DNA of 64,000 bases, from positions 1,568,001-1,632,000 of the forward strand of contig OY820905.2 in NCBI GenBank assembly GCA_963555755.3. The letters are read 5' to 3'. A program made the translations under genes and the position numbers. Under the pieces are notes generated by a model. It saw only the letters and a list, made by a program, of their open reading frames with translations. It was not told the origin of the DNA and made no database searches. This DNA comes from Nitrospirales bacterium. GTDB lineage: Bacteria; Nitrospirota; Nitrospiria; Nitrospirales; UBA8639. This document shows positions 720-4,760 of this stretch, one piece after another; positions within the stretch are counted from its first letter, which is position 1, and every line of letters begins with the position of its first letter.

Positions 720-1160
720 GGAGATAGGGGTCAGATAGAGATAGGATAGGTGATAGGGGGATAGGGGTCAAATCTTTGGTTGACTAAAAAAGGAAAAGGG
801 GTCAAATCTTTGGTTGAAAAGGGGTCAAATCTTTGGTTGAGAGTTTCGTTTTTAACTCTTCGGCTTTCTTTTGAAAAGGGGTCAAATCTTTGGTTGAGAG
901 TTTCGTTTTTAACTCTTCGGCTTTCTTTTAGCCACTAACCTTTTTATGTGCAAGTGATCTTCTATTCCGAGAAGGGGGCGTGAGCTGAAGTATTAGTCAA
1001 CAAAAGATTTGACCCCTTTTCCTTTTCAGAATAGCCTAAGCTTTTTGTTTGAAACTCTCAACCAAAGATTTGACCCCTTCTCAAGATTTGACCCCTTCTC
1101 CTTCTAAGATTTGACCCCTTCTCATGTTTGAATGTGGCCCTTTTCTCCTCCCTTTTCAGA
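720..1160. repeat. GGGGTCAAATCTTTGGTTGA...TCAACCAAAGATTTGACCCC inverted-repeat element (REPIN/MITE-like), copy 1, with stuttered partial ends
   Basis: Core 874-1079 matches 4038-4270 and partly 38861-39005. The terminal motif is repeated several times on each side. Confidence 0.9.
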
Positions 1161-1162
1161 AT

Positions 1163-1696
1163 TCATTTTTTGAGCTGATTAGCGAATTTATAATCAAAGA
1201 TAAAATGTCCAATCAAACCATCCAAATCTCTTTCCAAATCCTGAATAGTTTTTTTTGATTCAATAAAAATAGGGTCAGGCAACCCATAGGTCCACGTTAC
1301 ACTCCAGGTTCGCACATTAGGAACTCTTTCGGATACAACATTTTCGTAAAGCTCAAGTTTTTGTGAATAAAGAAACTTTCCTTCGCAATCCTCTGACAAA
1401 GGTTTTAAATCTAATGTCAACTTTAGTAAAGGTGAATCACTCTGAGAATCATCATTCACATTTAGTTGTAAACCTTCCTTTTGAAAATGGTTCACCGCAC
1501 GAATAAAAAGACGATCATAGTGTTGGTAAGGAACCCTCAGCATTAATGTTACAGTTTCTAAATCTAATCCCTTTGTGGTCGAAACCAAAGGTTCAGCGTA
1601 GACTGTATTTCCAAAGATTACTATAGACGCAATCATAAACTTGAATACAATCAGAGAAGTGAATTTGCCAAATTCTGGTCTATAGATAATTTTCAT
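1163..1696 (-). CDS. Exported hypothetical protein, candidate orphan immunity protein
   Basis: 177 aa AT-rich ORF with a signal-peptide-like N-terminus (VYA/EP) and RBS GAGGGA. It lies directly downstream of a degenerate CT-like fragment. Confidence 0.6.
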   Translation of the reverse strand: MKIIYRPEFGKFTSLIVFKFMIASIVIFGNTVYAEPLVSTTKGLDLETVTLMLRVPYQHYDRLFIRAVNHFQKEGLQLNVNDDSQSDSPLLKLTLDLKPLSEDCEGKFLYSQKLELYENVVSERVPNVRTWSVTWTYGLPDPIFIESKKTIQDLERDLDGLIGHFIFDYKFANQLKK

Positions 1697-1707
1697 TCCA
1701 ATTCCCT

Positions 1708-1980
1708 CTAGAATTTCTTAATCAGAAATAAATTCCATCCAACAAATACGAGATTATACTTTTCAAAAAGCCTGATCGTAATTAAGCCTCGAACGGCATG
1801 GCCTACATGGTATAAAATTGCCCTGTCCAGGTCCAAAATTTGTCACGACCGGTGCTTGAGAGGTCCTGGTTATGAAGTCTGGAATTATTTGTAAATAGGC
1901 GGGACCAGTAATTCCATTTACTGCTACCGCAAAGTCTGCGAGACCCCCAAACCCTACTTTTCCTGGCAAATCTGTCCATA
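1708..1980 (-). pseudogene. 5'-truncated, frameshifted fragment, possibly a polymorphic toxin C-terminus
   Basis: Begins abruptly after TGACCCC stutter repeats. A frame switch gives LDRAILYHVGHAVRGL...FLIKKF* ending at the RBS of the 177 aa gene. Confidence 0.35.
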
Positions 1981-1982
1981 AT

Positions 1983-2510
1983 GGGGTCATAATGGGGTCA
2001 TAATGGGGTCAGGCCTGCGTTAATGCTTTGATATATCCACGAAGCTGAGAGGGAAGCCCATCCTGCCCTCGCACGCTTGCATCTATTTTTCCAATTTGAC
2101 GACTCAAGGTGGAGGCATCACGATTCCAATAAATCCCCACTTCCTGAATGGTTGCCGTACCAACCGGTGTTTTTGATTGATCCACCGGGTATAGCGGAAG
2201 GCCAGATTTTGCATGATTTGGCTCAACGGTTTTTCCTTCACTTGAATGGCAAAATGGAGGTGGTTGGTCATGCAACAGAAACCATTAATCCGATGGCGAT
2301 AGCGCTCGCCTCCCTGGTGGAGCAACCCATACACGTGATGCCGGTCTTCGTCATCGAAGAAAATATCCTGGCCCCCATTCCCCCGAAGAATCATATGATA
2401 AACCCCTCCCGGGACATGAAGTCATGGTTTTCTGGCCATGATCCAATCGTCATGGAAGGGACTAGATTATTGCAATAACGCAGGCCTGACCCTATCATGA
2501 CCCTATCACT
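1983..2510 (-). mobile_element. Decayed RAYT (Y1/IS200-like REP-associated tyrosine transposase) between GGGGTCAGGCCTGCGTTA inverted repeats; gene remnant 2009-2439
   Basis: MARKP*LHVPGGVYHMILRGNGGQDIF...CCMTNHLHF (HUH). There is an in-frame stop at codon 6 and an internal deletion jumping to an HTH-like C-terminus (QEVGIYWNRDASTLSRQI...ALTQA*). The stop codon lies inside the TGACCCC repeat. Confidence 0.85.
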
Positions 2511-2676
2511 AAAGGAGAGGAGGAACGCTAGACAGAAGTGGAAGGAGACAGGCTGCTCTTCTTGAGACGGCCATCAAGCAATATGACGTCATGCACGTAT
2601 TCCTGTTCAGAAAATCAGCCTGGCCCCTTTTCCAAGCCCAATTTATTCTTCCAAAAAAGGCTATACTGCGATTCAC

Positions 2677-2976
2677 TCAACGTGGCAAGAGCAGCTTTCT
2701 CCGAACATCTTGAAGCCAACTAAACACATTTGTACCATCGGCGGTTGGATCATAATAACACCCAAGCTGCAATAATAATTCCAAAACTTCAGATTCACTA
2801 CACCCAGAGTTTAAAATCTGCTCCAACTCGAATTGAGCCGCACGAATAGACTCCGGCGGTTCAGACTTTACAAAGTCAGCAATCGCCGGATCCCAAGACT
2901 CATAATCTACAGGCCAATCCTGATGGAAATAACAGCCAAAAAATTGGAACAAGGCCGGATATTTATTTTTCATCAT
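2677..2976 (-). CDS. CdiI-type immunity protein (CdiI_2-like, cognate of RNase A-like CdiA-CT)
   Basis: YPALFQFFGCYFHQDW motif, 99 aa, ATGA overlap with the toxin stop codon. Confidence 0.8.
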   Translation of the reverse strand: MMKNKYPALFQFFGCYFHQDWPVDYESWDPAIADFVKSEPPESIRAAQFELEQILNSGCSESEVLELLLQLGCYYDPTADGTNVFSWLQDVRRKLLLPR

Positions 2977-4037
2977 GGTGTTGGAAAACCAGTAACAATA
3001 CGAAAGCCTGTAGGCAGTGAAGTCGACCGGTCCAAAATGACTTTAACATTGGAAGCAGGAATAGCCGTTGAGGCACCTCTAGTTACACTAACTCCCACGG
3101 GACTAGGTAAACCATAGGTGATGACTAAACGTTTAGAATTGCCAGCCAAGAAATTTTGAATGGCAGCATGATTTGCTTTTAAGGCTTGCGACACAGCCGA
3201 TTCTGCTATTGCACGATTTAAAAGGATGAAGCTACCTTCAATCCTGGCTCAGAAGCAAGCCTACTTGACAATTGTGCCGCTGTTTGCCCTACATGACGAG
3301 CTAGTAGATGACCTCCAGCACCCTCATGTGCAGCAAGACCACCTCCAGGAACTATTCTACCAAAGCGCCCCTTCGAACCCAATGATAAAAGTTTTAATCC
3401 CCCTCTAAATACTACTCCAGTCCCAAATAGCGTGGCTGTTTCAACGGCAGTATTAGATAATGCAGGGCGTTGTTGCCCAACAGCTTCTGGCCCAAAGGCA
3501 AACTCATAAACATTTGGTGCTGAAAAGATTCCACTGTGTGAATAATCAACCCCAAATGGCGAGGAGTTACTCTGTGATCCAGTTTGGCTTGGCAGCGGAG
3601 TAGCCGTAACTTGAACAGTCTCTAGCGTATAATCGGCTGGGGCAAAATTATTCGATGATGCTGATGATCCTGTAGAACCTGCTGATGTGTCGCGCCCCCA
3701 GCCCCAGTCGTTCTTTAAATCAGTCCACCAATCATTCCACCAGGCATGGCCGGTGGGGTCGGTGTAGATAATGGGGTTATTGCGGACATAGCTGTAGCGA
3801 TTCAGCGCTTGTGGATCCATGGGATCTGGCACGATGGTATCTGGTGAGATGAATCGTCCCAGCACCGGATCGTAGTACCGCGCTTCGTAGAAATAGAGTC
3901 CCGTCTCGTTGTCTAATTCTTGGCCCGTGTATTTATACGCCACATCGGAGGTACCGGTATGGGTGTAGGTGTCGCCGTAGGGATAGTAGGCGTTGTCTTC
4001 TTCACTCACGCCATTGGCATCGGTGAGCACACTCGTG
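2973..4037 (-). pseudogene. Orphan Rhs core end plus bacterial RNase A-like toxin CT, 5'-truncated and frameshifted at about 3220
   Basis: YKYTGQELDNETGLYFYEARYYDPVLGRFISPD...YVRNNPIIYTDPTGH (Rhs core and DPxG site). The CT reads LAAHEGAGGHLLARHVG...VASSF, and one extra T in TTTTAAA joins it to LNRAIAESAVSQ...FRIVTGFPTP. Confidence 0.85.
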
Positions 4038-4270
4038 AAAAAGGGGTCAAATCTTTGGTTGAGAGTTTCGTTTTTAACTCTTCGGCTTTCTTTTAGCCAC
4101 TAACCTTTTTATGTGCAAGTGATCTTCTATTCCGAGAAGGGGGCGTGAGCTGAAGTATTAGTCAACAAAAGATTTGACCCCTTTTCCTTTTCAGAATAGC
4201 CTAAGCTTTTTGTTTGAAACTCTCAACCAAAGATTTGACCCCTTTTTCAACCAAAGATTTGACCCCTTTT
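4038..4270. repeat. GGGGTCAAATCTTTGGTTGA element, copy 2
   Basis: Appears identical by eye to 874-1079. It joins the Rhs fragment to a RAYT 5' fragment. Confidence 0.9.
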
Positions 4271-4329
4271 CCACGGAGCATCACGTGATAGACACCTCCG
4301 GGGACATGCAGTCTGGGTTTCCTGACCAT
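4271..4329 (-). pseudogene. N-terminal fragment of a second RAYT
   Basis: MVRKPRLHVPGGVYHVMLR, paralogous to the start at 2439. It is preceded by a GGGGTCAGGCTTGC repeat with stutter at 4370-4398. Confidence 0.75.
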
Positions 4330-4760
4330 AGTCCAATAATAAGGTAACGGGTAAATTAAGGCAATAGTGCAAGCCTGACCCCGTCATGACCCCGTCATTA
4401 AGGTTTACCGGGCATCGAGAAAAAAGCTCCAGTCCCCTTTCTCAAGTGTCTGTCAATTCCGGGCCACCCCAAGTCTTGACTTAATACTTGAGCTTCCTTC
4501 TGGTCTGCCCATTGGGGGAAGATCAATCGGTGCATGGGAAAGTTAAGCCAGTCCCTGGAAAGCTGGCCACGGCGGAATCGCGCCAAAATTGTATTAAATC
4601 AAGACCTGCCCCCCAACACTGAGCCCCAACACTCTGGAAACCCAGCCACGGCTAGGACAAACGAAAAATATATTAAGTCAAGACCTGACCTCTCCCATTT
4701 GGCTATTGGAGTGAAATATTCAACAGCCCCTGAATGCAATAACACAGGCCTGACCCTATT

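What the first reader, a model, noticed from the sequence alone, without database searches (positions are those of the whole stretch)
720..4760. Rhs toxin/immunity cassettes stitched together by RAYT-associated GGGGTCA/TGACCCC repeats: candidate HUH-driven toxin shuffling system
Seen, reading the minus strand: repeat, RAYT 5' stub, 230 bp IR element, 5'-truncated Rhs core-CT, CdiI, repeat-like motif, IR-RAYT-IR, truncated CT-like fragment, exported immunity-like gene, IR element. The truncation points at 1980, 4037, 4271, 4760 and 38836 each lie within a few bases of a TGACCC(C) motif, and related motifs recur at 1131, 2617, 4425, 4600 and 4679. Known: RAYTs are HUH nucleases that act on REP sequences, and orphan Rhs-CT/immunity arrays are usually attributed to homologous recombination. 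Inference: a RAYT/REP pair builds this array by capturing fragments at the motif. I do not know a formal description of this coupling.
Basis: partly seen in the sequence, partly recalled or inferred. Interest (0 to 1): 0.75.

Follow-up and report, generated by a model that had tools for sequence, protein, structure and literature searches.

The report
Transposon ends border orphan toxin cassettes
In this marine bacterium and its relatives, leftover toxin/immunity gene pieces repeatedly begin or end at the tips of a little-studied single-strand transposon, whose enzyme likely splices those tips onto nearby DNA and so would help build toxin-immunity arrays, although it does the same to other genes.

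Summary
The anatomy is real. The GGGGTCA/TGACCCC repeats are not REPs: they are terminal inverted repeats of TIRYT elements (TnpA-Y1 subclass 2.1) and their mini-derivatives. Intact or near-intact cognate transposases lie elsewhere in the genome.

Element ends join foreign DNA at a fixed point (motif plus about 5 nt), with no target motif and no target duplication. 24 of 156 ends join a copy of nearby DNA, 23 in direct orientation (random: 12 of 1500). So ends act singly and attack any DNA.

The Rhs link still exceeds chance:
- 5 of 5 Rhs loci in this genome lie near an end; IS copies do not.
- In relatives, 5 of 14 Rhs cores versus 3 of 74 PIN genes.
- Downstream ends face the immunity gene 10 to 0.
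- End-fused truncated Rhs pieces occur in 9 other records.

Against a dedicated system: only about 7 of 85 orphan boundaries carry an end, a phylum-wide test was null, and this toxin is frameshifted with no full-length Rhs nearby.

Best reading: one-ended strand transfer plus selection for immunity. The scan noted TIR-end joining in other genomes before; my look-ups found no note of the Rhs link.

The parts
759..1125 (.). Family-A TIR mini-element, copy 1 (147-bp core 874-1020 plus an extra end; ends re-duplicated several times)
   Evidence: ends match those of the intact TIRYT at G000:C1:761643-762611
1163..1696 (-). Putative immunity gene, 177 aa, likely exported (hydrophobic N-terminus read by eye)
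   Evidence: 37% identical to the gene right after the long Rhs at C1:234592-239607; no Pfam or NCBIfam hit; Atlas neighbours unnamed
1763..1979 (-). Tip-only Rhs toxin fragment fused to a family-E end
   Evidence: 40% over 50 aa to the last 60 residues of that Rhs; truncation inferred from protein homology only (no DNA homolog)
1980..2510 (-). Family-E TIRYT element, internally deleted (no catalytic Tyr region), with stuttered ends
   Evidence: 99% to C1:686882-687388; about 91% to both ends of the near-intact copy C1:2922729-2923733
2612..2632 (+). Degenerate TIR-like end facing the CdiI stop
   Evidence: flank score 10.0 but TGGCCCC core, no family in the genome; uncertain
2677..2976 (-). 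CdiI_2 immunity gene, intact frame
   Evidence: PF18593 E=4e-24
2973..4037 (-). 5'-truncated Rhs core plus RNase A-like toxin tip, broken by a frameshift near 3200
   Evidence: TIGR03696 E=3e-25; PF18431 positions 1-31 and 42-113 in two frames; 85% aa to the Rhs at C1:234592
4039..4272 (.). Family-A TIR mini-element, copy 2; its two flanks (Rhs, TIRYT stub) are unrelated
4272..4397 (-). 5' stub of an E-related TIRYT with its own stuttered TIR
   Evidence: 74% to the 5' end of the family-E element; translation
4470..4760 (+). Stack of further TIR remnants ending in a family-E end
   Evidence: 4470-4613 has at least 8 relatives in the genome; 4609-4764 is 99% identical to C1:1429205-1429360
4761..5250 (+). 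IS110 3' fragment cut at the family-E end
   Evidence: PF02371; 12 other copies continue upstream
38837..39038 (.). Family-A mini-element outside the array, not next to Rhs

Best explanation
The repeats are the ends of TIRYT-type HUH transposase elements, and the enzyme, supplied in trans, likely joins one end at a time to an arbitrary site in nearby DNA, which at Rhs loci would leave truncated toxin-tip/immunity pieces bordered by element ends. Shown: the element end is fixed (TGACCCC plus about 5 nt), the partner DNA has no motif, no target duplication is made, and partners are often direct copies of DNA 0.1-22 kb away. Inferred: a join to a site on the inner side duplicates DNA (terminal stutters, transposase stubs, orphan copies), and a join to a site on the outer side deletes it. 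Inferred: selection keeps products that spare an immunity gene, so ends pile up just behind immunity genes and at the cut 5' edge of Rhs pieces. The system is a general local rearranger with a real bias toward Rhs loci in this family, not a toxin-specific recombinase.
For: Identity: Y1_Tnp plus C-terminal HTH in three full-length genes; NHYH/NHLH and YIHLNP motifs; each flanked by its own TIR family.
Fixed end: donor DNA matches the flank at 3 of 26 to 9 of 26 at positions 7-11, 14 of 26 at 12, 20 of 26 at 13 and 24-26 of 26 beyond; no donor motif. 56 of 82 stutters are perfect tandem duplications ending at +11 to +13.
Local joins: 24 of 156 ends, 23 direct, versus 12 of 1500 random and 3 of 775 shifted positions.
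Single-ended action: 0 of 5 traceable two-ended elements rejoin one donor; 26 of 27 have at most a 2-nt repeat at the junctions.
Rhs bias: 5 of 5 own Rhs clusters within 3.5 kb of an end (permutation P=0.00075), IS copies 22 of 110 against a 16% background. In five complete or near-complete genomes of the same family, 6 motif hits near Rhs versus 0.26 expected; Rhs 5 of 14 versus PIN 3 of 74, Fisher p=0.002.
Polarity: 10 ends facing back and 0 facing away 0.9-3.5 kb behind the core in 46 loci, about 10 per 100 kb versus 0.375 in 400 kb of control DNA.
Independent arrays: L025 (9 of 10 genome copies of one TIR family in an 8-kb Rhs-piece array with an intact TIRYT); L221 and L071 (cassettes bracketed by inward-facing ends); also L046, L058, L100, L140, L227, L051.
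Against: No biochemistry exists for this subclass, so the strand-transfer step is inferred from junctions. Only 4 of 85 putative orphan boundaries had a strict motif at -15 to +2 (the 85 include duplicates and some doubtful calls); adding L051, L058 and L071 by inspection gives about 7 of 85. A phylum-wide pattern test found 7 hits versus 7 for the reversed control in 301 genomes. The 3.5-kb threshold was chosen after seeing own-genome distances. Relatives are kin, and the locus sets overlap. The window's cassettes are not copies of any neighbouring gene, so the duplication route is not shown for them. Non-TIR TGACCC motifs also gave 29 of 1587 near joins, above random, probably from TIR families that I missed.
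Confidence: 0.6

Rival explanations
1. Shared hotspot. TIR elements and Rhs modules both collect in the same few tolerant gaps. Elements insert conventionally, and later recombination between copies or ordinary deletions fuse them to Rhs pieces.
For: The uvrB-fhs-nuclease-ATPase neighbourhood carries Rhs and TIR islands at different gaps in this genome, L046, L058 and G022. Ends also face the 3' ends of ordinary genes. PIN genes are mildly enriched too (5 hits versus 1.63 expected).
Against: No simple insertion or target duplication among 27 two-ended elements (only 5 traceable). IS copies are not enriched near ends. The 10:0 polarity and same-direction solo ends are not expected from two-ended insertion.
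Confidence: 0.2
2. Dedicated toxin-shuffling system. A domesticated TIRYT captures and reloads Rhs tip/immunity cassettes, using the repeat as a recombination site, as an integrase uses attC.
For: Bracketed cassettes (L221, L071), the L025 array with 9 of 10 copies of its TIR family, and in G022 and G016 all motif hits that look like true ends (3 and 1, judged by eye) face an Rhs/immunity module.
Against: No site in the partner DNA and variable breakpoints along Rhs. Ends cut at 118 loci of this genome, including IS110 and TIRYT itself. Several TIR families are involved. The toxin here is frameshifted and the nearest full-length Rhs is about 155 kb away. Null phylum-wide test.
Confidence: 0.12
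3. Classical C-terminal displacement by homologous recombination made the orphans, and TIR ends only trimmed them later.
For: About 78 of 85 orphan boundaries lack an end; arrays without ends exist (L065, L068, L129). The model is in print (PMC2935791, passages read).
Against: Does not by itself explain solitary end-bracketed cassettes between housekeeping genes with no full-length Rhs in the locus (L071, L140, L058). It is compatible with the best explanation as an earlier step.
Confidence: 0.08

Closest known systems
TIRtron / TIRYT (Di Nocera et al. 2013, PMC3733652; passages read) = TnpA-Y1 subclass 2.1 (Quentin et al. 2018, PMC6006769; abstract, passages and first part of section 15 read)
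   Same: Y1 HUH core plus C-terminal HTH, terminal inverted repeats with a GGGGWSA motif, TIR dimers and dispersed TIR families, no REP hairpins.
   Different: In the passages seen neither paper reports junction position, single-end joining, local duplication or any Rhs link ('Rhs' occurs 0 times in both main texts; supplements not read). Family A reads GGGGTCAA, one base off the GGGGWSAS consensus.
RAYT / TnpA-REP with REP sequences (PMC8266576, passages read; PMC5581495, passages read)
   Same: Same HUH/Y1 superfamily; cleavage and strand transfer of single-stranded DNA through a 5'-phosphotyrosine is the chemistry assumed here.
   Different: No hairpin in single ends; a longer protein with an HTH tail; no CT/CA-type site seen in partner DNA.
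Orphan Rhs/CdiA tip-immunity arrays and sequential displacement (PMC2935791, PMC3150448, PMC5361080, PMC3482391; passages read)
   Same: 5'-truncated cores of variable length, variable tips, immunity genes kept, frameshifted tips.
   Different: Those passages invoke homologous or homology-facilitated illegitimate recombination. PMC5361080 states that no evidence exists for an integrase, and PMC3482391 mentions only XerC/D near polyimmunity loci. Here a named HUH element sits at the non-homologous junction, and the array has no upstream full-length gene.
One-ended transposition of IS91/ISCR elements and Helitrons (recalled, no call)
   Same: An HUH enzyme acts from one fixed end and moves or copies adjacent DNA of variable length.
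   Different: Those are Y2 or Rep-helicase enzymes with distinct ori and ter ends; here a Y1 enzyme with two equivalent inverted ends.
Integron cassette arrays (recalled, no call)
   Same: Same-direction repeats separate toxin, immunity and toxin-antitoxin cargo, and group II introns home to the repeat.
   Different: No tyrosine recombinase, no site in the captured DNA, and genes are cut at arbitrary points.

Membership tests
TIRYT / TnpA-Y1 subclass 2.1 | Y1 HUH core with NH[YF]H / Y[IV]HLNP-type motifs | tested here: met
   PF01797 above cut-off; NHYH or NHLH and YIHLNP in full-length copies A and E
TIRYT / TnpA-Y1 subclass 2.1 | C-terminal HTH (Bac_DnaA_C, HTH_23 or HTH_28) | tested here: met
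   Bac_DnaA_C 39.1 bits (A), 31.2 bits against a 31.5 cut-off (E); HTH_23/28 in the L025 gene
TIRYT / TnpA-Y1 subclass 2.1 | Gene flanked by terminal inverted repeats with GGGG[AT][CG]A[CG] | tested here: met
   families E and B read GGGGTCAG; A and F read GGGGTCAA
TIRYT / TnpA-Y1 subclass 2.1 | Placement in the subclass by phylogeny or the authors' profiles | not tested
   no tree built; assignment rests on domains, motifs and TIRs
RAYT / REP (REPtron) | Flanking REP: short stem-loop palindrome | tested here: not met
   six single ends fold no better than shuffles (z from -1.2 to +1.7); only the whole two-ended element folds (z -4.9)
RAYT / REP (REPtron) | NCBIfam NF047646 cut-off | tested here: not met
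   73.5 and 70.9 bits against 80
RAYT / REP (REPtron) | ssDNA cleavage and strand transfer at a dinucleotide | not testable with these tools
   needs purified protein; no dinucleotide preference in 26 donor sites
Orphan Rhs tip/immunity array | 5'-truncated Rhs core with a toxin tip followed by an immunity gene | tested here: met
   TIGR03696, PF18431, PF18593; second pair by homology
Orphan Rhs tip/immunity array | Located downstream of a full-length rhs of the same clade | tested here: not met
   only one core in this part of the genome; same-clade long genes at C1:1413293 and C1:234592
Orphan Rhs tip/immunity array | Toxicity and neutralisation | not testable with these tools
   family names only
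Integron-like site-specific cassette system | Recombination site present in both partners | tested here: not met
   donor DNA lacks any motif at the junction
Integron-like site-specific cassette system | Cassette excision as circles and re-insertion | not testable with these tools
   only contigs were available; no joint clearly skipping a cassette (one 788-4215 joint has 21 letters a side inside the repeat)
Classical cut-and-paste IS / MITE | Insertion into one target with target-site duplication | tested here: not met
   0 of 5 traceable elements rejoin a donor; 26 of 27 with at most 2 nt repeated

The most novel reading that the evidence does not exclude
TIRYTs are the missing enzyme for the non-homologous junction of polymorphic-toxin arrays in Nitrospirales: a partly domesticated HUH system that archives or mobilises toxin-tip/immunity cassettes (and toxin-antitoxin cargo) between its ends, an integron-like gene store built by one-ended single-strand transfer.
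Probability: 0.2. Interest if true: 0.85.

Novelty: new variant of a known kind. Interest (0 to 1): 0.58.

Why it matters
How orphan toxin/immunity arrays get their non-homologous junction is open: the papers read propose illegitimate recombination and name no enzyme. Here a specific, widespread HUH transposase class sits at such junctions with a base-precise end; I found no biochemical test of this class in the papers read. That gives the class a predicted cut site (about 12 nt from the start of TGACCCC), a predicted reaction (single-end joining without a target motif) and a testable role in local gene duplication and deletion. Even if toxins are only one of its victims, it is a likely source of structural variation in nitrite oxidisers.

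Tried and rejected
- REP reading: rejected by folding and by the NCBIfam cut-off.
- A conserved breakpoint in Rhs: three alignments starting at 4037 looked like one, but this only reflects the query's end. The two other genes run on intact, and breakpoints in relatives vary.
- A target motif: an apparent C at +12 belongs mostly to the element.
- First orphan classification over-called orphans. It was redone with an in-frame-stop rule, which dropped 43 of 84 boundaries in the genome set and 51 of 95 in the metagenome set.
- Phylum-wide TIR-to-RYYD pattern: 7 hits versus 7 control; the one candidate inspected (L244) lies inside an open frame.
- The motif pattern is noisy: 6 of 9 hits in G022 and 6 of 7 in G016 look like chance.
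- My 'family C' partly reflects an IS4-like element inserted in another TIR family; these are still TIR ends.
- No orthologous array in 40 relatives by DNA search. G022 has a full-length Rhs about 10 kb from the ATPase ortholog, but in a different gap, so it is not a direct ancestor.
- RNA run X8 holds contigs of the full-length E gene and of parts of the array, but DNA carry-over was not excluded. Sediment runs X10/X11 cover 1122-1982 at about 97% and not 2571-3900; a hole proves nothing.
- Atlas search for ORF 1163-1696 gave unnamed clusters only.
- Literature searches for a TIRYT/HUH-Rhs link found none. The one paper with both terms (10.1101/2024.07.17.603846, passages read) treats them separately. 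The library lacks most subscription papers, and supplements were not read.
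Full report
Observation. The window is C1:1568001-1632000 of a closed 4.6-Mb genome; related records are titled Nitrospirales. Two additions: the RNase A-like toxin tip is split by a frameshift near 3200, and the 'RAYT' at 1990-2497 is an internally deleted copy, 99% identical to a second deleted copy and about 91% identical to the two ends of a near-intact gene at C1:2922797-2923702. 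The tip fragment at 1763-1979 and ORF 1163-1696 are homologs of the tip and the downstream gene of a long Rhs at C1:234592, which supports reading them as a second tip/immunity pair. Contigs from four runs of two studies match the cassettes without differences, so this is not an assembly artefact.

What the repeats are. They match the GGGGWSAS terminal inverted repeats of TIRYT elements (PMC3733652), placed in TnpA-Y1 subclass 2.1 (PMC6006769). The genome has 17 Y1_Tnp matches. Full-length genes with an HTH tail each carry their own TIR family, including family A (the 147-bp mini-element's ends) and family E (the deleted element; the full copy has a stop 19 codons before the end of the homologous frame). 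Single ends form no hairpin. I counted 195 primary ends of ten seed families at 118 loci, so the repeats are genome-wide.

How the ends behave. I analysed 156 of 179 outermost ends (those beginning TGACCC[CTG]). For 35 of them the flank matches another place starting at the junction; 24 of these donors lie within 50 kb and 23 are in direct orientation, against 12 of 1500 random and 3 of 775 shifted positions. In 26 well-aligned cases the match begins at position 12-13 from the motif's first base, and the donor has no motif. Terminal stutters are the short end of the same series: 56 of 82 are perfect tandem duplications ending at +11 to +13. Among 27 two-ended pairings (a few overlap), 26 have no target duplication longer than 2 nt, and none of the 5 with both flanks traceable rejoins one donor. 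These patterns point to ends that are joined singly to arbitrary, mostly local DNA. The chemistry is inferred from TnpA-REP, where a free 3'-OH resolves a 5'-phosphotyrosine link (PMC8266576).

Is there a link to Rhs? In this genome, 12 Rhs cores form 5 clusters, and all 5 lie within 3.5 kb of an end (permutation P=0.00075, threshold chosen after seeing the distances). Copies of four IS families are not enriched (22 of 110 versus 16%). A second exact fusion of an end to a truncated Rhs lies at C1:690047. Of the 9 partial Rhs frames, 2 start at an end and one is cut at its 3' side by a related repeat.

In relatives I fetched 66 genome loci and 74 metagenome loci around homologous cores. A flank model trained only on this genome found 10 ends facing back and 0 facing away 0.9-3.5 kb behind the core in the 46 loci titled Nitrospirota or Nitrospinota (8 loci carry them), about 26 times the density in 400 kb of arbitrary control DNA from four relatives. 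In five complete or near-complete genomes of the same family, 6 of 58 motif hits on the main contigs lie within 3.5 kb of an Rhs core (0.26 expected); 5 of 14 cores have a hit against 3 of 74 PIN genes. L025, from the same genus, repeats the window's design with another TIR family: stub, mini-element, Rhs piece, intact TIRYT, Rhs piece, immunity, end; 9 of the 10 copies in that draft genome are in this 8-kb array. L221 and L071 are single cassettes bracketed by inward-facing ends; L046, L058, L100, L140, L227 and L051 show an end fused to a truncated Rhs or tip. Where a homolog is close enough, the junction again maps to about +12 to +15.

Limits. Only 4 of 85 putative orphan boundaries carry a strict motif at the junction (about 0.6 expected from the 0.7% background), about 7 after inspection. 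So most orphans arise otherwise. A narrow phylum-wide pattern was at background. The relatives are kin, and the test sets overlap. Both Rhs islands and ends favour one neighbourhood near uvrB, which keeps the hotspot rival alive. No reloading of a tip on a full-length gene was seen.

Mechanism. Shown: fixed element end, arbitrary partner, local direct duplications, no target duplication, enrichment and polarity at Rhs loci. Inferred: the TIRYT makes these joins one end at a time; joins inward duplicate and joins outward delete; loss of the costly Rhs body is tolerated while loss of immunity is not, so ends come to rest at cut Rhs 5' edges and 0-200 nt behind putative immunity genes (distances read; most of those genes have no family hit). 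Such orphans could then feed ordinary homologous tip exchange, which is untested here.

Comparison and novelty. The element is a member of a known class and the array is of a known kind. The nine paper searches that were answered found no report of their coupling, and PMC5361080 notes that no integrase is known for such arrays. Earlier notes of this scan report TIR ends joined to foreign DNA and stuttered ends in other genomes (seen); my look-ups returned none with Rhs. Verdict: real, a new variant of known parts, moderately high interest because it names a testable enzyme and cut site for an open step.

Noticed in passing
G000:C1, e.g. 230295, 240685, 687548, 5124, 3675072; L001:319-2308: Two group II intron families insert inside the TIR motif, after TGACC (12 of 12 and 5 of 5 copies of the end searched), mostly in recognisable TIR ends of several families (Rfam group II hits in L001). 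This recalls introns that home to integron attC sites (recalled).
   Followed up: partly
G000:C1, e.g. 178045, 228101, 1422428, 3551043: An IS4-like element (name from my reading of its frame, not from a call) also targets the TIR motif: 17 copies begin right after ...TGACC, mostly in one TIR family.
   Followed up: partly
window 4272-4330; L025:2267-2370; L058:8708-8850; G000:C1:690037-690138: TIRYT 5' stubs cut within about the first 10-30 codons, in three of the four cases by another TIR end, recur; ends may prefer targets close to another end.
   Followed up: no
L034:7934-9533; L039:7412-8174; L071:6548-7574; L072:9995-10553; L226:5792-7260: Runs of same-direction solo ends separate small toxin-antitoxin-like genes (identified by eye) downstream of Rhs modules, giving a cassette-array look.
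   Followed up: partly
L008 (upstream of the window), L046, L058, L246-L247: The uvrB-fhs-nuclease-ATPase neighbourhood is a recurrent island site: TIR-fused Rhs pieces at three different gaps and a full-length Rhs in G022.
   Followed up: partly
G000:C1:701547-703450, 2919565-2919700; L046:1961; L058:8632; L051:5972: Further end types (…GGTTCCTGACACC and …GACTCCCGACCCC) sit at similar junctions; they were not in my TIR families, so counts are conservative.
   Followed up: no
G000:C1:4098342-4108415; 87773-94999; 2167330-2168176: Large direct duplications anchored at element ends: 2025 bp at 100% identity, 617 bp, and 413 bp of a TIRYT gene's own 3' part.
   Followed up: partly
window 3-650 (gene continues upstream): A 532-aa GHKL-type ATPase of unknown role, conserved beside fhs/uvrB in relatives.
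   Followed up: no
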